A DNA stretch of 64,000 bases, taken from assembly GCA_016873845.1 (NCBI GenBank), contig VGVX01000005.1, forward strand, positions 2,002 to 66,001, in the 5' to 3' direction. Shown in pieces: positions 13,096 to 63,502 of the stretch. Below the pieces are notes generated by a model. The model did no database searches. It saw only the letters and a list, made by a program, of their open reading frames with translations, and was not told the DNA's origin. The stretch is from Ignavibacteria bacterium. Lineage in GTDB: Bacteria; Bacteroidota; Ignavibacteria; Ch128b. Position 1 is the first letter of the stretch. Each line of letters starts with the position of its first letter. The position numbers were made by a program, and so were the translations under genes.

Positions 13096-13791
13096 ATGCA
13101 CATACATAACATAAGTTTAAATTTAAAAAGATTCTTTGCATTTATTGTTGATCTTCTTTTGCTTTCCATAATCTTTACTATCATTTACTTAAAATTCATT
13201 TACGACCTTCTAGATCCATTTGAAAATTCGATTTATCCAATCACGATAATCTTGTATATTCTTTTCCTCCAATTTTACTGCATCATATTTGAATATTTTA
13301 CCTGGGGAACTTCACCTGGGAAATATCTTTATAAAATTAGAATTGCTTCAAAAGAATCAAATAAGTTAAGTATCACACGAATATTAATTCGCAATCTATC
13401 CAAAGTGATTTTATTCGTGCCGCCATTATTTTTGATGAATGAAGTCTATCTTTTTATTGCCCTTAAAAAGAAGTTTTCTGATCATCTATCCGATTCTGAA
13501 ATTACTGAAGTTCTGAGAAAACTAAAGGTAAAGTTCAGTGAAAAAGAAAAACAATTGATTGATAGAGAACTGCAACAGCAGTTAAATATATCACTCCAAT
13601 TCGATGAAATAAATTTGTTAAAAAAGTTTTATACTTCATCGAAATATTTAAACGAAGAATTTAAAAAGAATTTTCTTACAAAATTTTTGGATCATTTCTC
13701 AGAAAGAATTATCCTCACCTCAAAAGAAATAAGTGAAATTAATCCACACATTTTATTAACAAACATTCTCTATAAGCTAAAATATGTATAA
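13096..13791 (+). CDS. RDD-family membrane protein.
   Basis: It contains the RFFAFIVD...TWGTSPGKYLYKIRI motif with TM helices. ATG at 13096 is preferred over the TTG at 13066. Confidence 0.5.
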   Translation: MHIHNISLNLKRFFAFIVDLLLLSIIFTIIYLKFIYDLLDPFENSIYPITIILYILFLQFYCIIFEYFTWGTSPGKYLYKIRIASKESNKLSITRILIRNLSKVILFVPPLFLMNEVYLFIALKKKFSDHLSDSEITEVLRKLKVKFSEKEKQLIDRELQQQLNISLQFDEINLLKKFYTSSKYLNEEFKKNFLTKFLDHFSERIILTSKEISEINPHILLTNILYKLKYV

Positions 13792-14842
13792 AAAAATTTT
13801 CGTACCGATTATCTCGTTAATTTCAGTCGTGTTTATTGTCGGCTGCTCAACAACCACAGTGGTTCAAAATATTTATTATGTTAAACCATTCGACTGGCAT
13901 CCGAAAGAAAAACAAGATTCAACAATAAATTCATATTCACAGACTTACATGGGATACACGATATTTATAGATCCAGGTCATGGCGGTACAGATAGAAGAA
14001 ATAAAGGTCCAAAAGGATTGGCAATTGAAGCTGATCTGAATTTGAAAGTTGGACTTTACCTGCGCGATTATCTTCTTCGTGCTGGAGCTAAAGTAATAAT
14101 GTCTCGTGATATTGATACATTCATCTCTCTCGATGATAGATCAAAATTAGCAAATGAATCGATAGCTGACGTTTTTATTTCTATCCATCACAATGCACCA
14201 GGTCGTGCTGGCGATGTATATACGAATTTTACTTCAACGTATTATCATGGTACTGCTAAAGATTATGTCTATGATCCATGCAATCATGATTTAGCAAAAT
14301 ATATTCAGCGTGATCTTGCATATGTCATGGGAAACAGCGGCGGGCTCGGCTCATTCGATGGAACATATTCTGATTACTGGATTTATCCTGGTGCTGGATT
14401 CTCAGTCCTTCGGAAGACTGTAATTCCCAGAGTGCTAGTGGAATGTGCTTTTCATACAAGTGAGTATGAGGAACAGCGGCTTATCGTTGACGAGTTCAAT
14501 CAAATTCAGGCTTGGGGAATTTTTCGCGGACTCGGAAAATACTTGCGACAGGGAGTTATTAAATTGTATACACCAGAAACAATGAATTACATTACATCTG
14601 ATCCGCAAATAAAAATATTCATTGATGATCAAGGAAGAGGAATTGATTCAACATTTTGTTTGGCACAAATAAATAAAGAGCCGGCGTATTCTATTTTTGG
14701 TGATGAGGAGGGTAAAAAAGTGCTTATCATCTCTCCAATGAGAGAGCTTCCTCCAGGTGAACATGAAGTAAACGCAGTTGTAAAAAATCTCAACGGGAAT
14801 CATTCATTCCCATTTAGAAAAAAAATTACAGTTAGTTATTAA
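13784..14842 (+). CDS. N-acetylmuramoyl-L-alanine amidase (Amidase_3, AmiC-like) lipoprotein.
   Basis: It has a lipobox (VGCSTT) and the zinc-binding motifs IFIDPGHGG and ISIHHNA. Confidence 0.8.
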   Translation: MYKKIFVPIISLISVVFIVGCSTTTVVQNIYYVKPFDWHPKEKQDSTINSYSQTYMGYTIFIDPGHGGTDRRNKGPKGLAIEADLNLKVGLYLRDYLLRAGAKVIMSRDIDTFISLDDRSKLANESIADVFISIHHNAPGRAGDVYTNFTSTYYHGTAKDYVYDPCNHDLAKYIQRDLAYVMGNSGGLGSFDGTYSDYWIYPGAGFSVLRKTVIPRVLVECAFHTSEYEEQRLIVDEFNQIQAWGIFRGLGKYLRQGVIKLYTPETMNYITSDPQIKIFIDDQGRGIDSTFCLAQINKEPAYSIFGDEEGKKVLIISPMRELPPGEHEVNAVVKNLNGNHSFPFRKKITVSY

Positions 14843-55769: not shown

Positions 55770-58700
55770 ATGAATAATATCTCCATTCAAAATATTATCA
55801 GTAAGCTCGAAAGACAAATTAAAAAAGAAAACTTGGTTACAATTTTGTCGGGTTTCCTTTTCTCAGCTGTCGCAATTTTATTACCACTGACAATTCTTTC
55901 TTTGTTGGAATCTTATTTTTACTTCGATACAGATGTAAGAACAATTTTATTTTTTCTGTTTAGTGTTTTTGTACTAATCGTTTTTGTTGTTTCGTTAGTT
56001 CACCCATTCTTCAGATTTCGAATGCAGATGAAAGAAGATAAATACCTGAAATCTGCAAGAAAAGTTGGGGAAAAATTTCCGCAGATCAAGGACAAACTTG
56101 TAAATATTTTGCAGCTTGATTTTTCAAAAGATAAAGAAGAATATTTTTCAAATTCACTCATCGAGGCAGCGATTGAAAGTATAGAAGGTGAAACCTCGAC
56201 TTTTAAATTTGAAGAATCGGTTAATCAGGAACGAATAAACAATCCTGCTAAATACTTCGTGTTTTCAGTTCTGTTTTATGTTTTGTGTTTCTTCTTGCTC
56301 AGCGGCTTCAGTTCGGCATCATACAGAATTTTAAATTTTACAGAAGAATTTTTACCTCCAGCAAAATTTTATTTTGATGTAAAACCTGGAAATGGAAAAA
56401 TCACAAAGGGTGAAAACTTTGATATCAAAATTAGAATAATAGGTTACGAACTTAACAAAGTTGTGATCAATCATGGGCAGTCTGAATCTGAATACGTTGA
56501 AACCAAACAAATTACTGCTGACTCAAATGGTGTTTTTCAGCATACTTTCGTAAATCCATTAAGAGATTTTACTTACTTCATATCGGCAGATGGAGTTAGA
56601 AGTAAAAAATATGAAGTGCAAGTAGTTAATCGTCCAATTATTAAGAACCTGACAGTTCGAGTAATCCCTCCCGCTTATTCTAAATTGCCTATGCAGTTGA
56701 ATGAAGATAATGGGGATGTAAACACGCTTTATGGTTCTTCAATCGAATTGAATTTGACAGCGAGCAAAACACTTTCCTCAGCAAAAACATTATTTGCTGA
56801 TACAACTGAGTTGTTGATGAAAATTGAAAAAAGTAGAGCTTACATCAAGTTTCTTCCCCGAAAAGATGCGGCTTATCAACTTCTGATCTATGATGAAGAA
56901 GGAAACGAGAATGTTAATCCAGTCCGTTATAATATAAAACTGATTGCAGATAATTTTCCAAGCATAACGCTTTTAAAACCGCAGGAAACAGTTAATCTCA
57001 CAGATAACCAGCGTGTTTCAACTTTAATAAAAATCAAAGATGATTACGGATTCACGTCACTTACCTTGAATTACAGATTAAGTGATTCTCGGTACGAAAG
57101 GCCATGGGAGGAATATGAAAAAATCAACTTAAGTATTCCCGATAATCTTGAATCGGATATTGGTTATGTCTGGAATCTTTCTTCGCTCAACTTGGTCACA
57201 GATGATGTCGTCTCATATTATTTTGAAGTTTTTGATAATGATAACGTCAGCGGTCCAAAATCTGCAAAAACTGAAATTATGACTGTTAGAATTCCATCGC
57301 TTGATGAAATACTTGCCGAAGGAGATAAGACCTACGACACGGCAATTAAAGATATACAGCAGACTTTGAAAGAAACTGAGCAGCTTAAGAAAGATATTGA
57401 AGAGCTCGACAGAGATTTAAAATCTGCAAGAGAGAAAGTAACTTGGGAAGAACAGAAAAAAGCTGAAGAGATTCTGAAGAAACAACAAGAAATGATGAAG
57501 CGAGTTGAAAATATTCAGGATCAGATGAACGATCTTCAAAATAAATTGAGTGAGAACAACCTTCTTTCTCAAGAGACGCTCCAAAAATTCATGGAGCTTC
57601 AAGAGTTATTTAATCAGCTCAGTTCTGAAGAGATGAAAGCTGCAATGCAAAAACTGAATGAAGCTTTAAAAAATATCAACAAGCAAATGATGCAAGATGC
57701 CTTGAAGAACTTTCAATTTAATGAAGAGATGTTCAGAGCAAGCATCGAACGAACTTTAGAATTACTCAAACGGGTACAAATCGAGCAAAAAATGGATGAA
57801 ATCTCAAAACGGCTTGATGAATTAATGAATAAGCAGGATGACCTTTCACAAAGACTTCAGAACACAAATCCAAGTGATGAAAAATCTCTTCAAAATTTGA
57901 GTGAACAGCAGAAAAAACTTGCTGAAGAAATCGACAAACTCGAGAAAGAACTTGAAGATTTAGAGAAGAAAATGTCTGAGTTCCCAAAGGAAATGCCAGA
58001 AAAAGATTTGAAGAATATGATGCAGGAATTTTCTGAAGAAAATCCGAGTCAATGTTCAAATCAAGCGTCGAAAGAGATGATGGTAGGTCAGCTTTCAAAA
58101 GCTGGAAAGAATCAACAGAATGTGAAAAGCAGTCTTTCAAAGACGAAAAAAGGGATGTCTCAGCTAAAAGAGAAAATGATGCAGAATCAGATGATGATGG
58201 CAATGAATCAGATGAAAAAAATTATCAGCGAATTACTTGAGCTTTCTAAAAAGCAAGAAGCTCTTAAGAATAGAACTAATGCTGTTGATCCGAATTCTCC
58301 ACAATTAAATCAATCTGTTCAAGAACAGGCGGAACTCCGTGAAGATTTAAGCAAAGTAATAGACCAAATGATTGAACTCTCGAATAAAACATTTGCAGTA
58401 ACACCTGAAATGGGAAAAGCTGTTGGCAAAGCTAATTCTGAGATGGCTCAATCTCTCAATAACTTTCAGTTGCAAAATAAAATTGGCGGAGTGCAAAACC
58501 AAACAAACGCTATGGGCGCATTGAATGAAGCTGCAAGCTTAATTCAAGATATGATGCAGAACATGATGCAAGGAGGACAAGGCGGAGGATTGATGTCGTT
58601 TATGCAAAAGTTGAAACAGATGTCGCAGCAGCAAATGAATTTGAATAATCTAACTCAAATGCTTGGACAAGGAAAGCTAAGCATGGAACAGCTTTCACAA

Positions 58701-59138
58701 TTGCAAAGACTCGCTTCTGAACAAGAAATGATCAGAAAGTCGCTTGAAGAATTGAACCGTGAAATAAAAGAAAGCGGTGAAGGGAGTAAGATGCTTGGCG
58801 ATCTTGATGACGCAGTAAAAAAAATGGAAGAAGTGATTCGAGAAATGCGGCAAAACAATGTGAATAACGATGTGATCCAAAAGCAGGAAAAAATTCTAAC
58901 TCGTATGCTTGATGCGCAAAGATCTTTGAATGAACGTGATTATGAAAAACGCCGTGAATCAAAACCGGGCGAGGAGTTAGTGAAACGTCCGCCAACTGAA
59001 ATTGATTTTAACGAGGGAAAAGATAAACTGCGGCAGGATTTGATGCGGGCTTTAGAGGAAGGATATGCGAAAGATTATGAAATTCTAATTCGCAAATATT
59101 TTGAAGCGTTACAGAGAGAAAAACTGGGGCAGAAATAA
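55770..59138 (+). CDS. Large membrane-anchored protein with a very long coiled-coil and a Met/Gln-rich low-complexity C-terminal half (DUF4175-like by context).
   Basis: N-terminal TM helices are followed by about 600 aa of heptad-like E/K/Q/M-rich sequence (MMQNQMMMAMNQMKK; MQNMMQGGQGGGLMSFMQ). It is immediately downstream of the DUF4159 gene. Confidence 0.5.
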   Translation: MNNISIQNIISKLERQIKKENLVTILSGFLFSAVAILLPLTILSLLESYFYFDTDVRTILFFLFSVFVLIVFVVSLVHPFFRFRMQMKEDKYLKSARKVGEKFPQIKDKLVNILQLDFSKDKEEYFSNSLIEAAIESIEGETSTFKFEESVNQERINNPAKYFVFSVLFYVLCFFLLSGFSSASYRILNFTEEFLPPAKFYFDVKPGNGKITKGENFDIKIRIIGYELNKVVINHGQSESEYVETKQITADSNGVFQHTFVNPLRDFTYFISADGVRSKKYEVQVVNRPIIKNLTVRVIPPAYSKLPMQLNEDNGDVNTLYGSSIELNLTASKTLSSAKTLFADTTELLMKIEKSRAYIKFLPRKDAAYQLLIYDEEGNENVNPVRYNIKLIADNFPSITLLKPQETVNLTDNQRVSTLIKIKDDYGFTSLTLNYRLSDSRYERPWEEYEKINLSIPDNLESDIGYVWNLSSLNLVTDDVVSYYFEVFDNDNVSGPKSAKTEIMTVRIPSLDEILAEGDKTYDTAIKDIQQTLKETEQLKKDIEELDRDLKSAREKVTWEEQKKAEEILKKQQEMMKRVENIQDQMNDLQNKLSENNLLSQETLQKFMELQELFNQLSSEEMKAAMQKLNEALKNINKQMMQDALKNFQFNEEMFRASIERTLELLKRVQIEQKMDEISKRLDELMNKQDDLSQRLQNTNPSDEKSLQNLSEQQKKLAEEIDKLEKELEDLEKKMSEFPKEMPEKDLKNMMQEFSEENPSQCSNQASKEMMVGQLSKAGKNQQNVKSSLSKTKKGMSQLKEKMMQNQMMMAMNQMKKIISELLELSKKQEALKNRTNAVDPNSPQLNQSVQEQAELREDLSKVIDQMIELSNKTFAVTPEMGKAVGKANSEMAQSLNNFQLQNKIGGVQNQTNAMGALNEAASLIQDMMQNMMQGGQGGGLMSFMQKLKQMSQQQMNLNNLTQMLGQGKLSMEQLSQLQRLASEQEMIRKSLEELNREIKESGEGSKMLGDLDDAVKKMEEVIREMRQNNVNNDVIQKQEKILTRMLDAQRSLNERDYEKRRESKPGEELVKRPPTEIDFNEGKDKLRQDLMRALEEGYAKDYEILIRKYFEALQREKLGQK

Positions 59139-59406
59139 CAACACATTGAATTAAGTGTTTATAAAACCTGATGTCGCATTCAATTAGCTGCGTCTTACAT
59201 TTTAACGTCTCAGCAAGCAACTCAATATTTTTATGAGCATACAAATCTCATTCGAGCGAACAAAAGTATTGAGCGACAACTATAATTCGTTTTCATAAAT
59301 GGAGCGACGTTATTTGTCGTGTTAATTGCAGTGTGCTCTACGTGTACTTGATTATATCATAATTTGGTATTAATTTGTGCATGTTATTAGTCAAAGGAGA
59401 AAAACA

Positions 59407-59676
59407 ATGCCTATTATTAAATCCATATCAAGTTTACGTAATCGGACACGAGAAATTGCAAGTCTCTGTCACGATCAAGATGAACCCGTATATCTCACAA
59501 CCAATGGTGAAGGCGATTTGGTCGTGATGAGTATCGACCATTATGAACGATTGAAAGCCCAGGTCGATCTTTTCGAAAAACTATCCTTTGCTCAAGCACA
59601 ATCACTTACGGGGAAGAAAGGGAGTACGAACCAACAGATGATGGCAAAACTAAGAAGCCGCATCAATGCCCGTTAA
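59407..59676 (+). CDS. Phd/YefM-family antitoxin.
   Basis: The MPIIKSISSLRNRTREI...PVYLTTNGEGDLVVMSIDHYERL segment is present. The gene overlaps the toxin gene by 11 nt. Confidence 0.75.
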   Translation: MPIIKSISSLRNRTREIASLCHDQDEPVYLTTNGEGDLVVMSIDHYERLKAQVDLFEKLSFAQAQSLTGKKGSTNQQMMAKLRSRINAR

Positions 59677-59971
59677 ATCGACCCTTCGTTACCTTCCAGC
59701 TTCTCAGGACGATCTCTTATCCATTCTCGACTATATCGCCAAAGATAGCCCAAGTCGCGCTCTGAAATTTATCGACAAACTTGAAGCTCGTATTGGACTT
59801 TTAGAAAACAATCCAAAACTTGGTCGCATACCACGGCATCCGAAGCTTCGAGAGTACGGTTACCGAGTTCTCGCAATAGAATCATCTCTTGTTTTCTATA
59901 TCATTCGTGGACGGACCATCGAGATTCATCCTGTCGTTCATGGTTCTCGCAACCTTGATCATTTCATCTGA
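59666..59971 (+). CDS. RelE/ParE-family toxin.
   Basis: It is about 100 aa with the ...YRVLAIESSLVFYIIRGRTIEIHPVVHGSRN pattern typical of ParE/RelE. It follows the antitoxin with overlap. Confidence 0.7.
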   Translation: MPVKSTLRYLPASQDDLLSILDYIAKDSPSRALKFIDKLEARIGLLENNPKLGRIPRHPKLREYGYRVLAIESSLVFYIIRGRTIEIHPVVHGSRNLDHFI

Positions 59972-60030
59972 TTTACCAAATCTTATTTCAACTTGCCGGC
60001 GCATTGCACGTAACGGCTCGCATAAAAATG

Positions 60031-60081
60031 ACATACTGTTTGCCACTATAAATAGACAAATTATCTTGTGGCAAACAGTAT
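60031..60081. repeat. Perfect 15-bp inverted repeat (CATACTGTTTGCCAC / GTGGCAAACAGTATG) with a 21-nt loop.
   Basis: Read directly from the sequence, 60 nt after the relE-like stop. No T-tract follows it. Confidence 0.7.
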
Positions 60082-60282
60082 GTTCCCAAGAGCGAGACGT
60101 TTGATTTAACTATGTTTATTTTATGTTTCATTTTTATGCGTGTTAGCCGCAGTGCACGGTAATTAACATTTTTGAAACCTACTTCGAGAACAAGAGATGA
60201 CTGTGTTAAAAGTCAAGCATACTTTGGATGTACATAATCATCCACGTATGTTCTATTATTTTTAACTACTGCAAATAACTGT

Positions 60283-60517
60283 TTAACCAACTTCTTCGCA
60301 GGACATATTTAGGTGAGCGTAGCTTACACCAAGTTTAGAAGCTGTCAATCTAAAACGTTGAAATGCATGATCAATTTTTACCCAGGATGCAACATTATTT
60401 TCATCGGCGAAAAAATTTATCAAACCTTGTGTATGATCTAATAAATCTTTGAGGCGTTTTGCCTCGCTTTTAGAAGTAAAAAAGGCAAGGTCACTGTTCC
60501 CGAATGATGATGATCAT
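60283..60517 (-). pseudogene. C-terminal gene fragment with no start codon (possibly nitroreductase-like).
   Basis: The minus-strand frame ...FADENNVASWVKIDHAFQRFRLTASKLGVSYAHLN...* is open only to an upstream TGA and has no initiator codon. Confidence 0.3.
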
Positions 60518-60822
60518 AAAAAATGCTTTACCTGGTTTACAGAGCTCTCTCAAAGAAATGGACTATGCCCATTTGGAACTGAGCTATCGTTCTTTCTAAT
60601 TTTTCAATTATTTTTGGACAAAGGCTGGAGTCTTTTATATGAAAACAGACAGCCGTTCACACAAATTATTTTACACGCTCGAAGAAAATCAAAAAAGTCT
60701 TAGTAGCACTAACTAATTGAATTATTCTTGAAATCATCCAGGTTCTATAAAGTGAATTAATCATATTCTTTCTCAGATGTAACCAATTACTAATGACAAT
60801 TCTGAGATAAAATCACCATCTC

Positions 60823-61056
60823 CTAATTAATTTTTTTCAATGACATAGACTGAATCTTTGTGCTGGTGGCTTTTTCATAATAACTTTTAGACTCCTCTAT
60901 CTTACCATTTTTTTTATAAATTAAACTAAGATAATAGTAAGGCTGGTCGTATTCCGGGTAATATTTAATTGAATTCTCAAATGCTTCAATTGCCAGTTTA
61001 AATTTGTTTTGTAAAAAATAAAGCCTACCTAATTCATTATATTCAGTTAGAAAGAG
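60823..61056 (-). pseudogene. TPR-repeat protein fragment, N-terminally truncated.
   Basis: The minus-strand frame ...YNELGRLYFLQNKFKLAIEAFENSIKYYPEYDQPYYYLSLIYKKNGKIEESKSYYEKA...* contains a TPR motif and no start codon. Confidence 0.4.
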
Positions 61057-61151
61057 TTAACTTCAAAAGTTGTGTAAAATTATAAATTTTGAAAAGTTAG
61101 CAGTGACCCCTAAACTAGTAAAGAAAAAAAATAACAAAAGGAGCCACTGCA

Positions 61152-61740
61152 ATGTCAGAATATCTAAAAGAAATCAGACAATCAAGTAGTAACGACATAC
61201 TAGAAGAATTGGCCTTAGAAGGTTTTAAGGAAAAACTAATTGATCTACTTAATTCGGAGATAGACGAATACTTGGGCCATAAAAAGTACGAGCGAATACC
61301 AGAAGGAAGTAATTCCTATAGAAATGGTAGCTCAAAACCACGCCACATAAGTATAGGCAGTGGCACAACATATATAGAAGCTCCACGCTTACGAGAACAA
61401 TTTGAATCAGAGATACTCCGAAAATACCAATCCGAAGTGATCAACTTACAGAGATGATCTTAGATATGTATCTGCATGGTTTATCCACAGGAGACTTTTC
61501 AAAGTTCCTAGATAAGATATTAGGTGAAGAAGCATCGCTATCAAGTATAACTATTACACGGTTAAAAGAAAGTTGGCATCTAGAATATGAGGAATGGAGA
61601 CAACGTCCACTTGAAGAGTCATATCTTACATTTGGGCAGATGGAGTCTATCCCAAGGCCGGTCCATCAGACGAAAAGATGGCATTATTAGTTGTAATAGG
61701 GGTAAAATCAAATGGAGAAAAAGATATTTTATTTTTGAAG
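61152..61740 (+). mobile_element. IS256-family (mutator-type) transposase remnant. Only the N-terminal half of the protein (about 200 aa) is present. It carries two frameshifts and is truncated at its 3' end.
   Basis: Frame 1 reads ...KKYERIPEGSNSYRNGSSKPRHISIGSGTTYIEAPRLRE. After a -1 shift the next frame reads MILDMYLHGLSTGDF...EEWRQRPLEESYL. A third frame reads WADGVYPKAGPSDEKMALLVVIGVKSNGEKDILF. The DDE catalytic region is absent. Confidence 0.75.
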
Positions 61741-61841
61741 AGGGTTACGCGAAAGATTATGAAATTCTAATTCGCAAATATTTTGAAGCACTTCAAAAAT
61801 TGAATTTCAAACAAGAAAAATTTCACTTTATAACTACATGA
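61741..61841 (+). other. Paralogous copy of the 3' end of the DUF4175-like gene. It encodes ...EEGYAKDYEILIRKYFEALQ and shares a 42-nt exact core with 59066..59107.
   Basis: Direct comparison: gcgaaagattatgaaattctaattcgcaaatattttgaagc occurs at both sites, with about 85% identity over about 70 nt. Confidence 0.7.
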
Positions 61842-61893
61842 AAAGATTCTATCTTTTCACTGAGCTATTGAATCTAAGAAAGATAGAATCTTT
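61842..61893. repeat. Perfect 15-bp inverted repeat (AAAGATTCTATCTTT / AAAGATAGAATCTTT) with a loop of about 21 nt.
   Basis: Read directly from the sequence. Confidence 0.65.
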
Positions 61894-61924
61894 ACCTAAC
61901 TTAGACTTAAACTAAATTCTAAAA

Positions 61925-61969
61925 AAACCCGACTTTTCTGATTCGTTTATTTCATAAAAAGTCGGGTTT
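61925..61969. terminator. Bidirectional terminator-like hairpin: a 13-bp stem (AAACCCGACTTTT / AAAAGTCGGGTTT) with a 19-nt loop, with an A-run on one side and a T-run on the other.
   Basis: Read directly from the sequence, between the + strand island and the convergent DUF1579 gene. Confidence 0.55.
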
Positions 61970-61989
61970 ATTAAAACAAAAATTAATTC

Positions 61990-62577
61990 TTACTTCTTCC
62001 GTTTCATTTCAACGACCATATTGAGAAACTCATCTCCAAATGCGGAAGAATACATTTCCATAATGTGGAGATCCGGGCTTACAAATTTGATTACTTGACG
62101 GAAAGCATAATCCTTACTCGACATTGGATCGTACATCATTCCCTTTAAAGTAATAGAGTTATTCGCTTCGTCAAACGTACCACGTGCAATAGTTGTTCCG
62201 GTTCCGAGGTTATCATACCAAACTGATGTGAACTCGTTTTTTGCATTATCATATCCTACGATTTCAAGACCTTCAAAAGGCATCCCCATAACTTCACCTT
62301 TGTGAACACTTTTCATATATCTATTCCCGAGTATCATTTCGGATGTAGTTGTGCCTTCCCAAGTTGTCGGTTCGGTGCCCGGTGCCCACCACATTTTGGA
62401 GTATGAGGTCCATTCACCTGCACTTTTTGCCATCGCATCGTGCGTCATACTTGGTGTCATGTATTCCATCCAAGCTTTTTGTTCAGCTTCCATTTGTTCA
62501 GGTGTATAATCCTGCGCATGAGATTGAAAAACAAAAATTACACAAACAAATAAGAAAGTTAAAATAGTTTTTGTCAT
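61990..62577 (-). CDS. DUF1579-family secreted protein.
   Basis: A signal peptide is present, and the W/G-rich pattern (WEGTTTSEMILGNRY...FEGLEIVGYD) resembles DUF1579. Confidence 0.5.
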   Translation of the reverse strand: MTKTILTFLFVCVIFVFQSHAQDYTPEQMEAEQKAWMEYMTPSMTHDAMAKSAGEWTSYSKMWWAPGTEPTTWEGTTTSEMILGNRYMKSVHKGEVMGMPFEGLEIVGYDNAKNEFTSVWYDNLGTGTTIARGTFDEANNSITLKGMMYDPMSSKDYAFRQVIKFVSPDLHIMEMYSSAFGDEFLNMVVEMKRKK

Positions 62578-62650: not shown

Positions 62651-63502
62651 CTAAACTGGATCAATGTGTACAAAAACCTCTGCAACATCCCTTAATTCTC
62701 TGATTGCTTTTTTTACATCTAAACCGATATCATGCGACATTTTAGTTGTATAGTCTTTATCTATTTCGATATGGATCTCTATGTGATATTTGTTACCAAT
62801 GTAATGAGATTTAAGATCGTTCATCCCCTTTACACCATCAATTTTCAAAGCGAGATTCGCAACTTCAATCATTAACTCTTTGTCAGCGGCTTTCCCCATC
62901 AGGTAATCAATATTTTCTTTTGCTACATGGTAACCGCTTCTGAAAATAAAAAATGCAATTAGAATTCCAGCAATTCCATCAAAATATTTGAATCCGAACG
63001 CCGAAATAATAATTCCAGTAAGTGCGATAAAAGAAGATAGAACATCATTAAAACTATCAACTCCAAGTGCTCTTATTGCTGGACTGTTATACTTTCGACT
63101 GACTCTGCTGAAATAGAAAGTCATAAAGCTTTTAAGGAAAATCGTAATGGCTAATACTATCAATGGAAAAGTAATTGCATCTAAGATCGAAGGTTCAATT
63201 ATTCTCGTTATAGATTCTCGGATTACGGTTATTCCAGCAACTCCTGCGAAAATTGCGAGGATCATTGCTGCTATAGGCTGTGCAGCATGATGTCCATATT
63301 GGTGATCATGATCAGCTTGCTTGTAGGAAACCTTGACACTGAAATGCACAGCATAGTTTGTCAGTATGTCCGTGAATGAATTTATTGCATCAGAGATTAA
63401 TGCGATGCTGTTTGATAGAATTCCCGCGGTTAACTTTATAACGAATAAAAATATGTTCGATATTAAAGAAAACTTTGAAGCTTTTTCGACTTTATGCTGC
63501 AT
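62651..63502 (-). CDS. Cation diffusion facilitator (CDF) family divalent-metal efflux transporter.
   Basis: Six TM helices, a His-rich loop (HDHQYGHH), and the ISDAINSFTD motif are present. Confidence 0.8.
   Translation of the reverse strand: MQHKVEKASKFSLISNIFLFVIKLTAGILSNSIALISDAINSFTDILTNYAVHFSVKVSYKQADHDHQYGHHAAQPIAAMILAIFAGVAGITVIRESITRIIEPSILDAITFPLIVLAITIFLKSFMTFYFSRVSRKYNSPAIRALGVDSFNDVLSSFIALTGIIISAFGFKYFDGIAGILIAFFIFRSGYHVAKENIDYLMGKAADKELMIEVANLALKIDGVKGMNDLKSHYIGNKYHIEIHIEIDKDYTTKMSHDIGLDVKKAIRELRDVAEVFVHIDPV

What the first reader, a model, noticed from the sequence alone, without database searches (positions are those of the whole stretch)
59139..61841. A 2.6-kb junkyard island inserted at the 3' end of the DUF4175-like gene: TA module, gene fragments, dead IS256
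The large gene stops at 59138. Between 59139 and 61740 lie five things: an intact Phd/YefM-RelE/ParE pair, a perfect 15-bp inverted-repeat hairpin, two start-less C-terminal gene fragments on the opposite strand (nitroreductase-like and TPR), and the N-terminal half of an IS256-family transposase broken by two frameshifts. At 61741 the sequence resumes with a second, 85%-identical copy of the last 70 nt of the large gene. This is a hotspot of IS-mediated rearrangement. It is the only clearly accessory DNA in the window, and the TA pair may stabilise it.
Basis: partly seen in the sequence, partly recalled or inferred. Interest (0 to 1): 0.6.

Follow-up and report, generated by a model that had tools for sequence, protein, structure and literature searches.

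The report
Decayed gene-cassette islet after DUF4175 gene
The 2.6-kb stretch is a worn-down piece of an integron-type gene-cassette array, with one intact toxin-antitoxin cassette plus gene debris, recombined into the conserved end of a large Ignavibacteria gene: an ordinary kind of accessory DNA at a spot where relatives also collect foreign genes.

Summary
These are the Phd-ParE pair, a perfect hairpin, nitroreductase and TPR gene tails on the minus strand, a twice-frameshifted N-terminal half of an IS256-family transposase, and a second partial copy of the DUF4175 gene end (61733-61789 vs 59051-59107, 57 nt, 91%).

Three points are new.

1. The hairpin is the centre of an attC-like site. 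A covariance model built only from the attC repeats of an unrelated integron array hits the window twice and nowhere else: 59194-59336 (E 1e-6) and 60002-60157 (E 8e-12). These sites bracket Phd-ParE, so the pair is an integron-type cassette in an array with no integrase nearby (a CALIN).

2. The right boundary is not an IS end. The interior of the dead transposase gene (codons L-E-E-G-Y) is fused to the same codons of the old gene end. This is a microhomology (illegitimate) joint.

3. The downstream copy is the decayed ancestral gene end. Its cation-efflux neighbour is shared with outgroups.

Displaced DUF4175 ends recur in five other lineages, so this site is a recombination hotspot. The IS did not drive the rearrangement. 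The result is a new member of known kinds and of modest interest.

The parts
55770..59138 (+). DUF4175-family gene (1122 aa), intact. Its present 3' end is the 'A-type' tail ...EALQREKLGQK*
   Evidence: Pfam PF13779. Homologues are 1113-1142 aa across Ignavibacteria. The A-type tail is shared with L015 and with the displaced copy in L014.
59051..59107 (+). Repeat copy A, inside the working gene end
   Evidence: 57 nt, 91% identical to 61733-61789.
59139..59165 (+). Post-stop stretch with a small AACAC...GTGTT stem, conserved with relative L015
   Evidence: blastn 59013-59165 vs L015 13250-13403, 85.7%. Alignment.
59194..59336 (+). attC-like site 0. R'' is TTTTAAC at 59200-59206. R' is GTTAATT at 59321-59327.
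   Evidence: Covariance model R1, built only from foreign attC repeats: 30.2 bits, E 1.3e-6, full length.
59322..60142 (+). Phd-ParE gene cassette (821 bp), measured from the R' of site 0 to the R' of site 1. It carries its own promoter region.
   Evidence: Homology to cassette copies in L114-L118 and L111 begins at 59346. Flanking attC-like sites.
59407..59676 (+). Phd/YefM-family antitoxin gene (89 aa)
   Evidence: PF02604, 38.6 bits. TIGR01552.
59666..59971 (+). ParE/RelE-family toxin gene (101 aa)
   Evidence: PF05016, 56.2 bits. 284 relatives (E <= 1e-8; the 120 listed are 69-100% identical), some named Bacteroidota or Ignavibacteriae, mostly on short contigs.
60002..60157 (+). attC-like site 1. 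R'' is ACGTAAC at 60008-60014. R' is GTTAGCC at 60142-60148.
   Evidence: Model R1: 49.2 bits, E 7.7e-12, full length. Fold -49 kcal/mol, z -6.3. Alignment to L114 attC sites.
60216..60513 (-). C-terminal fragment of a nitroreductase-family gene. It has no start and one frameshift.
   Evidence: Exhaustive HMMER search finds relatives of about 320 aa, with the fragment aligning to their residues 216-281. Those relatives carry PF00881.
60826..61056 (-). C-terminal fragment of a TPR-repeat gene. Its 5' side is cut where the IS256 copy begins.
   Evidence: TPR_2 E 7e-13, TPR_8, TPR_1. Coordinates from tblastn.
61152..61731 (+). N-terminal half of an IS256-family transposase gene. It has two frameshifts (about 61445 and 61627) and is truncated. 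The IS left end lies somewhere in 61057-61137 and was not delimited.
   Evidence: Transposase_mut profile 25-200 of 379, E 9.5e-31 after frame repair. 78% nt identity to L109.
61733..61752 (+). Illegitimate joint. The shared codons (L)EEGY of the IS256 transposase and of DUF4175 give a microhomology of about 12-15 nt (TTGAAGAGGGTTAC).
   Evidence: The IS relative reads GATATTTTATCGTTAGAGGAAGGTTATCGTGAGAGCTATGAA. DUF4175 ends read CTTGAAGAAGGTTACGCGAAGGATTATGAA. The window switches from one to the other inside the shared stretch.
61733..61841 (+). Displaced remnant of the older ('B-type') DUF4175 gene end. Compared with the outgroup tail ...EALQKQKLNLR*, its tail has a 6-nt deletion and has lost the stop.
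   Evidence: It matches outgroup ends at 84-87%.
61842..61972 (.). Two strong hairpins after the remnant. The second (61922-61972) is a terminator-like stem flanked by A and T runs, shared with the convergent DUF1579 gene.
   Evidence: z = -6.4 and -6.7.
61990..62577 (-). DUF1579 gene. Native right flank together with the cation-efflux gene at 62651-63502.
   Evidence: PF07617. The cation-efflux gene lies about 2 kb downstream of DUF4175 in outgroups L016 and L022-L024.

Best explanation
The segment is the eroded remnant of an integron-type cassette array lacking an integrase (a CALIN). It lies in a recombination hotspot directly after the DUF4175-family gene of an Ignavibacteria population.

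Content. The only intact unit is an 821-bp Phd-ParE toxin-antitoxin cassette bracketed by two attC-like sites. To its right lies debris: tails of a nitroreductase gene and a TPR gene, and the front half of a dead IS256 copy that had inserted into the TPR gene.

How it was installed. On the left, DNA carrying an alternative ('A-type') DUF4175 gene end plus the array recombined with the chromosome through the very conserved last ~90 nt of the gene, so the gene stayed whole. On the right, the boundary was made by illegitimate recombination at a chance 12-15-nt microhomology: codons L-E-E-G-Y occur both in the IS256 transposase and in DUF4175. This happened either during entry (homology-facilitated illegitimate recombination) or later, as a deletion that trimmed the island. 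The joint left a 109-nt pseudogene remnant of the original ('B-type') gene end next to the native terminator and the DUF1579 and cation-efflux genes.

Why the TA cassette survives. It most likely persists because losing it is toxic to the cell.

Shown: all the parts, the two attC-like sites, the joint inside the transposase frame, and the ancestry of the two gene ends. Inferred: the order of events, the homologous left crossover, and the addiction effect.
For: attC-like sites:
- The closest ParE relatives with usable context (78% identity, L114-L118) sit in an array of at least 8 same-strand repeats. These repeats have GCCTAAC...GTTAGGC ends and lie next to a 99-aa fragment whose best match is integron integrase TIGR02249.
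- A covariance model built only from those repeats hits the window full-length at 60002-60157 (E 7.7e-12) and 59194-59336 (E 1.3e-6). Both hits are on the + strand and flank Phd-ParE. Nothing else in the 64 kb scores better than E 0.2.
- The same model gives no hit in 847 kb of 84 other loci.
- The structure is kept: 93.6% of cells are paired, and 17 of 27 pairs show changes on both sides.
- Relative L015 shares the A-type gene end and also carries 4-5 such sites downstream of DUF4175, two of them flanking a HigB/HigA pair.

No integrase:
- tblastn and a motif scan find no tyrosine recombinase in the window.

The joint:
- The IS256 relative reads ...GEKDILSLEEGYRESYE and DUF4175 reads ...ALEEGYAKDYE. 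The window switches from one to the other inside the shared codons.

Ancestry of the two gene ends:
- Copy B matches outgroup ends at 84-87% and is a decayed QKQKLNLR* tail.
- The cation-efflux neighbour is conserved in outgroups L016 and L022-L024.

Foreign origin of the TA part:
- G+C is 0.43-0.44 against about 0.35 in the flanks.
- ParE relatives named Bacteroidota and Ignavibacteriae are 70% identical.

Hotspot:
- Displaced DUF4175 ends occur in L013, L014, L043/L066, L058 and L049, with different inserts and different remnant lengths of 23-77 codons.
Against: - No donor locus was found that carries the A-type end, this TA cassette and intact nitroreductase/TPR genes.
- No island-free haplotype was found, so the direction and timing of events rest on comparison with relatives that are only 53-82% identical.
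- The R''/R' motifs of both window sites each deviate by one base from RYYYAAC/GTTRRRY.
- A sequence-only HMM built without the window copies does not find the sites.
- The attC model comes from one array family only.
- The left crossover leaves no scar. The switch of nearest relative in the last ~250 nt is confounded, because L013 has itself had its gene end replaced.
- Whether an integron integrase exists elsewhere in this genome is unknown.
Confidence: 0.62

Rival explanations
1. An integrative element with its own or a borrowed site-specific recombinase inserted into an attachment site in the DUF4175 gene end. It carried a surrogate gene end, as prophages e14 and 21 do in icd. The integrase and most of the element were then lost, and a later deletion ran from the IS256 interior into the displaced gene end.
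For: The layout is the classical signature of such insertions: a working gene end, then cargo, then a displaced gene end. In the distant clade, L049 differs from L055 by a 7.4-kb insert in the gene end. That insert's right edge is a conserved ~190-nt element plus palindromic TTGTAA hexamers, and two successive remnants suggest serial insertions. The attC-like sites in the window and in L015 point away from the gene end, which sits where attI would be.
Against: No recombinase gene was found in the window or, by tblastn, within about 10 kb of DUF4175 in loci L001-L100. The left limits of the remnants differ from case to case, at 23, 29, 35, 55 and 77 codons, so there is no common crossover point. 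In the window, the sequence abutting the remnant is a transposase reading frame joined at a microhomology, not an element arm. Inserts as small as 0.6-1.2 kb (L014, L013, L043) cannot encode an integrase.
Confidence: 0.2
2. IS256-mediated rearrangement: transposition, or recombination between IS256 copies, brought the pieces together and duplicated the gene end.
For: An IS256-family fragment lies at the right boundary and truncates a TPR gene. Several assemblies break inside it, which could mean related copies exist elsewhere.
Against: The boundary is in the middle of the transposase gene, at profile position about 200 of 379, not at an IS end. There is no inverted repeat and no 8-bp target duplication. 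The copy has two frameshifts. No second copy is in the 64 kb, and no close intact copy was found among 5.8 billion protein clusters. The best relative there is itself a frameshifted fragment with 90% aa identity. IS256 transposition makes 8-bp duplications (general knowledge), not a 57-nt, 91% repeat.
Confidence: 0.06
3. A local tandem duplication of the gene end, followed by divergence and unrelated insertions between the two copies.
For: The two copies share a 37-nt exact block.
Against: The tails and everything downstream of the two copies are unrelated. Copy B resembles outgroup tails, whereas copy A resembles the tails of L015 and L014. The left limit of copy B coincides with a microhomology to the IS, not with a duplication junction.
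Confidence: 0.03

Closest known systems
CALIN: cluster of attC sites lacking an integron integrase (Cury et al. 2016, PMC4889954), with a toxin-antitoxin cassette as in sedentary chromosomal integrons (Richard et al. 2024, PMC13108822)
   Same: Two same-strand attC-like sites are 0.8 kb apart with no integrase nearby. They bracket a self-promoted Phd-ParE pair. A homologous cassette sits in a true array next to an integrase fragment (L114). Relative L015 carries a longer array at the same place.
   Different: Only one cassette survives, and the array is truncated by unrelated debris. The core motifs each deviate by one base. The host is an Ignavibacteria lineage. The array abuts the stop codon of a core gene whose end was replaced. 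Recombination activity was not tested.
Homology-facilitated illegitimate recombination during natural transformation (de Vries & Wackernagel 2002; Prudhomme 2002; Meier & Wackernagel 2003, as summarised in PMC6382021)
   Same: Foreign DNA appears with one side in a homologous anchor (the conserved gene end) and the other side joined at a short microhomology.
   Different: The microhomology here (about 12-15 nt, imperfect) is longer than the 3-10 bp reported. The recipient joint lies inside the anchor region, so a partial duplicate remains. Competence of this organism is unknown. A later deletion would give the same joint.
Prophages e14 and 21 in the E. coli icd gene (integration into a gene's 3' end with a surrogate end; from my own knowledge, not checked in a paper here)
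   Same: The gene stays intact through an imported alternative 3' end, and the original end survives as a displaced pseudogene on the far side of the insert.
   Different: There is no integrase and no defined attachment core. The remnant's limit is a microhomology with an IS interior. The insert is cassette debris, not a prophage.
Orphan C-terminal modules downstream of rhs/cdiA genes (from my own knowledge)
   Same: Partial copies of a large gene's end lie downstream of it and share a short conserved stretch that could allow recombination.
   Different: Here the variable part is only about 7-15 residues with no toxin domain and no immunity gene. Nothing suggests that selection acts on tail switching.

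Membership tests
Integron gene cassette / attC site | Imperfect palindromic site with inverse core R'' (RYYYAAC) and core R' (GTTRRRY) at its ends, 57-141 nt long | tested here: met
   Site 1: ACGTAAC...GTTAGCC, 141 nt. Site 0: TTTTAAC...GTTAATT, 128 nt. Each motif has one mismatch to the consensus. GTTAGCC also occurs in a bona fide array member, L114_f.
Integron gene cassette / attC site | Conserved folded structure (R and L boxes plus a variable stem), supported by compensatory changes | tested here: met
   Full-length covariance-model hits at E 7.7e-12 and 1.3e-6, using a model that excluded the window. 93.6% of cells paired, and 17 of 27 pairs changed on both sides across 11 sites. The alignment is fitted to the model. 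The same model gives 0 hits in 847 kb of control loci.
CALIN (Cury et al. 2016) | At least two attC sites on one strand less than 4 kb apart, with no integron integrase nearby | tested here: met
   The sites are at 59194-59336 and 60002-60157, both on the + strand. No tyrosine recombinase was found by tblastn or motif scan in the 64-kb window. The definition is taken from PMC4889954.
Complete integron | An intI gene with an adjacent attI site and Pc promoter | tested here: not met
   No intI or fragment of it is in the window. The place where attI would lie is occupied by the DUF4175 stop codon.
Integron gene cassette / attC site | Excision and integration catalysed by an integron integrase | not testable with these tools
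   Needs an in vivo recombination assay.
Type II toxin-antitoxin, Phd/YefM-ParE | Two small adjacent genes, antitoxin first, both matching the family profiles above the curated cut-offs | tested here: met
   PF02604: 38.6 bits against a cut-off of 29.8. PF05016: 56.2 bits against 23. 11-nt overlap, both frames open.
Type II toxin-antitoxin, Phd/YefM-ParE | Toxin activity that is neutralised by the antitoxin | not testable with these tools
   Needs expression experiments.
IS256-family insertion sequence | Complete DDE transposase (Transposase_mut) between terminal inverted repeats, with an 8-bp target duplication | tested here: not met
   Only profile positions 25-200 of 379 are present, with two frameshifts. 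The right half and right end are absent. The left end was not delimited. It is a dead fragment of a member, not a functional member.
Homology-facilitated illegitimate recombination | One junction in extended homology and the other at a short microhomology between otherwise unrelated sequences | tested here: inconclusive
   The microhomology joint is shown. The homologous left crossover is inferred only from the different ancestry of the two gene ends. An intrachromosomal deletion would give the same joint.
Integrase-borne island with a surrogate gene end (e14/icd type) | A site-specific recombinase gene in the element, and a common attachment core at both ends | tested here: not met
   No recombinase was found. 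The remnant limits vary between lineages. The right edge is an IS interior.

The most novel reading that the evidence does not exclude
The conserved 3' end of the DUF4175-family gene may be a dedicated, repeatedly used docking site for gene cassettes across Ignavibacteria. It sits exactly where attI would lie relative to the attC-like arrays of the window and L015. In a distant clade, cassettes carrying a different, uncharacterised ~190-nt repeat plus TTGTAA palindromes pile up there, and each arrival displaces the previous gene end. The recombinase would be encoded elsewhere in the genome. That would be an integron-like platform built on a protein-coding gene end rather than on an intI-attI module.
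Probability: 0.15. Interest if true: 0.65.

Novelty: new member of a known kind. Interest (0 to 1): 0.35.

Why it matters
The locus is a clear natural example of how accessory DNA is stitched into a chromosome without a dedicated enzyme at the site. A conserved gene end serves as the homologous anchor, and a chance microhomology closes the other side.

It also places integron-type cassettes, with a toxin-antitoxin pair as the last survivor, in an Ignavibacteria lineage.

Finally, it flags the DUF4175 gene end as a landmark next to which defence and accessory genes can be looked for in this phylum. The genes found there include restriction-modification, TIR, OLD-family nuclease, HEPN and toxin-antitoxin genes.

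None of this overturns current views.

Tried and rejected
- Island-free haplotype or donor locus: not found. Exact-protein look-ups for DUF4175, DUF1579 (two variants) and ParE returned only the same population with the same structure.
- Intact close copy of the IS256: not found. The only close relative, L109, is itself frameshifted and does not reach the IS left end, so the IS terminus could not be mapped.
- Rfam: no match for the hairpin region or for the R element.
- Sequence-only HMM from the foreign attC repeats: finds nothing in the window. Only the structure-aware model does.
- attC model R1 on other loci: no sites in L013, L014 or the R-element clade. The displaced gene ends there are therefore not explained by this attC family.
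- Sliding-window identity to locate the left crossover: ambiguous, because L013's own gene end has been replaced.
- Tandem duplication and assembly chimera: considered and rejected on the ancestry of the two tails and on the agreement of many independent assemblies.
Full report
**What is there**

The window comes from an Ignavibacteria population. Contigs from at least six JGI metagenomes with Ga01941xx identifiers, several Logan assemblies and an NCBI MAG are 99.9-100% identical across the region.

The 1122-aa DUF4175-family gene ends at 59138.

- Phd/YefM antitoxin (59407-59676) and ParE toxin (59666-59971). Both are above Pfam's cut-offs and overlap by 11 nt.
- A perfect inverted repeat with 16-nt arms (60031-46 / 60068-83), nested in a second perfect 13-nt pair.
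- A TPR tail on the minus strand (60826-61056).
- A second minus-strand tail (60216-60513). It has no Pfam hit of its own. Its best full-length relatives are nitroreductase-family proteins of about 320 aa, and it aligns to their residues 216-281.
- The N-terminal half of an IS256-family transposase (61152-61731). It covers Pfam profile positions 25-200 of 379 and has two frameshifts.
- A second copy of part of the gene end: 61733-61789 against 59051-59107, 57 nt, 91%, with a 37-nt exact block.

**It is accessory DNA at a variable spot**

- Upstream gene order (SecG ... sigma/anti-sigma, DUF4159, DUF4175) is kept in relatives whose DUF4175 is 78%, 82% and 66% identical (L015, L013, L014). Downstream, each carries something different.
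  - L013 has a toxin-antitoxin-like pair, an Eco57I-type restriction-modification gene, a TIR protein and DUF3800.
  - L015 has an IS, HigB/HigA and other small genes.
- In more distant relatives (L016, L022-L024) a cation-efflux gene lies about 2 kb downstream of DUF4175, as it does in the window beyond the island. The right flank is therefore native.
- G+C rises to 0.43-0.44 over the toxin-antitoxin genes, against 0.29-0.38 in the flanks.

**Which gene end is the old one**

The working end (copy A) reads ...EALQREKLGQK*. This tail and the 27 nt after the stop are shared with L015. The same tail type is the displaced copy in L014.

The downstream copy (B) reads ...EALQKLNFKQEKFHFITT*. At the DNA level it is the outgroup tail GAAGCACTTCAAAAGCAAAAATTAAATTTGAGGTAA (...QKQKLNLR*) with a 6-nt deletion and a lost stop codon. 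It matches outgroup ends at 84-87%.

Copy B is followed by two strong hairpins, one of them terminator-like and shared with the convergent DUF1579 gene. I read B as the decayed original gene end, and A as an imported replacement that keeps the gene whole.

**The hairpin is part of an attC-like site, and Phd-ParE is a cassette**

The search found 284 ParE relatives (E <= 1e-8). The 120 listed are 69-100% identical, and some are named Bacteroidota or Ignavibacteriae. Most are on short contigs.

- *The comparison array.* One relative (78% identity; L114-L118) lies beside a 99-aa fragment whose best match is integron integrase (TIGR02249, E 3e-12). It sits in an array of at least eight same-strand repeats of about 130-170 nt that separate small genes. 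These repeats have GCCTAAC...GTTAGGC ends and a conserved fold with compensatory changes, so they are attC sites.
- *Alignment by eye.* The window sequence after ParE aligns to them end to end, and so does a stretch upstream of Phd.
- *Independent test.* I built a covariance model from the foreign repeats only and scanned the whole window with filters off. It hit full-length at 60002-60157 (49.2 bits, E 7.7e-12) and 59194-59336 (30.2 bits, E 1.3e-6). Both hits are on the + strand, and the next best hit is at E 0.2.
- *Control.* The model found nothing in 847 kb of 84 other DUF4175 loci.
- *Structure.* Across eleven sites, 93.6% of cells pair and 17 of 27 pairs change on both sides (the alignment is fitted to the model).
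- *Caveats.* A sequence-only HMM without the window copies fails. Each core motif is one base off consensus.
- *Conclusion.* The two sites bracket an 821-bp unit (59322-60142) holding Phd-ParE and its promoter. No tyrosine recombinase is detectable in the 64 kb. By the published definition this is a CALIN: at least two attC sites less than 4 kb apart with no integrase (PMC4889954).
- *Relative with the same arrangement.* L015, which shares the A-type gene end, has four to five hits of the same model over 9 kb downstream of DUF4175. Two of them flank HigB/HigA. The A-type end and a cassette array therefore go together in this clade.

**The right boundary**

The closest IS256 relative (L109; 78% nt, 90% aa, itself frameshifted) reads ...GEKDILSLEEGYRESYE, as GATATTTTATCGTTAGAGGAAGGTTATCGTGAGAGCTATGAA.

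DUF4175 ends read ...ALEEGYAKDYE, as CTTGAAGAAGGTTACGCGAAGGATTATGAA.

The window reads GATATTTTATTTTTGAAGAGGGTTACGCGAAAGATTATGAA. It is transposase up to GATATTTTAT, DUF4175 from GCGAAAG onward, and the shared (L)EEGY codons in between.

The boundary is therefore an illegitimate joint at a chance microhomology of about 12-15 nt inside the transposase reading frame. It is not an IS terminus, and there is no inverted repeat or target duplication. The IS is a passenger: it had inserted into the TPR gene and then lost its right half. No other copy is in the window.

**How it most likely came about**

1. DNA from a related lineage, carrying an A-type gene end followed by a cassette array, replaced the local gene end through homologous pairing in the conserved last ~90 nt. 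This step is inferred.
2. The other side was closed at the LEEGY microhomology. This happened either at entry, which would be homology-facilitated illegitimate recombination as described for transformable bacteria (PMC6382021), or later as a deletion that removed the rest of the IS and whatever lay between it and a once longer remnant. The data do not separate these two options.
3. The other truncations show continued deletional decay: the nitroreductase gene lacks about 215 codons, and about 290 nt remain unassigned.
4. The toxin-antitoxin cassette is the only intact unit. This fits the published role of such cassettes in resisting loss within chromosomal integrons (PMC13108822). That step is inference.

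**A recurrent pattern**

I searched about 80 loci with at least 1 kb downstream of the gene. Same-strand displaced gene ends turned up in five other lineages.

| Locus | Displaced gene end | Insert or context |
|---|---|---|
| L013 | 41 nt, 85% | follows a toxin-antitoxin-like pair broken by two copies of a ~150-nt repeat |
| L014 | 214-240 nt, 90% | follows a 152-aa gene |
| L043 / L066 | present | a 63-aa and 176-aa gene pair |
| L058 | present | a HEPN protein |
| L049 | two remnants | 7.4 kb |

The remnant lengths differ, from 23 to 77 codons. That argues for recombination anchored in a conserved sequence rather than for one fixed crossover point.

Comparing L049 with L055 shows directly that the L049 insert lies inside the gene end of an otherwise L055-like locus.

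**Rivals**

- An integrase-borne element with a surrogate gene end (the e14/icd pattern) explains the layout. It is not supported by any recombinase, by a common crossover point, or by the window's right edge. I give it 0.2.
- IS256-driven rearrangement, 0.06.
- Local tandem duplication, 0.03.
- An assembly artefact is excluded by the many concordant assemblies.

**Verdict**

The 'IS-mediated' part is wrong.

All components belong to known kinds (CALIN, toxin-antitoxin cassette, dead IS, illegitimate joint). The novelty is a new member of known kinds, and the interest is modest.

The most novel reading not excluded is that the DUF4175 gene end is a dedicated docking site for cassettes in this phylum. 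I give that about 0.15.

Noticed in passing
L049 8002-8199 and 2920-2984; L058 2607-2792; L043 5342-5524; L066 5639-5809 and 8121-8268; L055 11020-11178 and 12138-12305: A conserved ~150-190-nt repeat (the 'R element': ...CATTTGGTCAGTTGGTAAGCATAGTTTACAAGTCCCCGCAATCT.CTCGCTTAAAACATAAATAAATTTTGGGAGGAGG...). It sits between minus-strand single-gene units downstream of DUF4175 in a clade about 43% identical to the window's gene. In L049, L055 and L058 it is followed by palindromic TTGTAACTTACAAAGTTGTA hexamers, and in L049 and L058 also by a displaced DUF4175 end. It has no Rfam match, no attC-like long hairpin, and is not hit by the attC model.
   Followed up: partly
L015 16407-16552, 17262-17405, 20277-20495, 22725-22819 (weak: 13723-13823): The 78%-identical relative carries a 9-kb array of attC-like sites on the + strand directly downstream of DUF4175. 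One pair flanks a HigB/HigA (Gp49 / HTH_3) module. The array runs to the contig end, so any integrase or displaced gene end beyond it is unseen.
   Followed up: partly
window 61987 (ends of L006, L009, L011, L012): Four independent contigs stop at exactly this base, just inside the end of the DUF1579 gene, while others read through. No repeat explains the break. Strain heterogeneity to the left of this point is possible, but no alternative haplotype was found.
   Followed up: partly
L013 10737-10893 and 11083-11240: Two copies (90-97% identical) of a ~150-nt MITE-like repeat. One of them interrupts the RelE/ParE-like toxin gene that follows DUF4175 in the window's closest relative.
   Followed up: partly
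L013 11419-16408; L043 3427-5208; L058 1654-2385; L066 3830-4225: The region downstream of DUF4175 in relatives is rich in defence-type genes: an Eco57I-type restriction-modification enzyme, a TIR protein, DUF3800, an OLD-family AAA_15+TOPRIM nuclease, a HEPN protein and a GIY-YIG protein.
   Followed up: partly
L114 1336-8294 (also L115-L118): An ENA metagenome contig with a truncated integron integrase (99 aa) and at least eight attC sites of an unusually long, sequence-conserved type (about 130-170 nt with an internal GAAGCGAG motif). Its first cassette is a Phd-ParE pair 78% identical to the window's toxin.
   Followed up: partly
L066 5371-5438 (-): A DUF805 RNA motif (Rfam RF03081, 80 bits) lies within the accessory region downstream of DUF4175.
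   Followed up: no
window 61587-61841 (+): An 84-aa open frame that is a chimera of out-of-frame IS256 sequence and the displaced DUF4175 tail. It has no family match and is most likely not a gene.
   Followed up: partly
L014 15435-16053: A Phd/ParE pair 54% and 45% identical to the window's lies 3.3 kb beyond the displaced DUF4175 end in the 66%-identical relative. It has no attC-model hit.
   Followed up: partly
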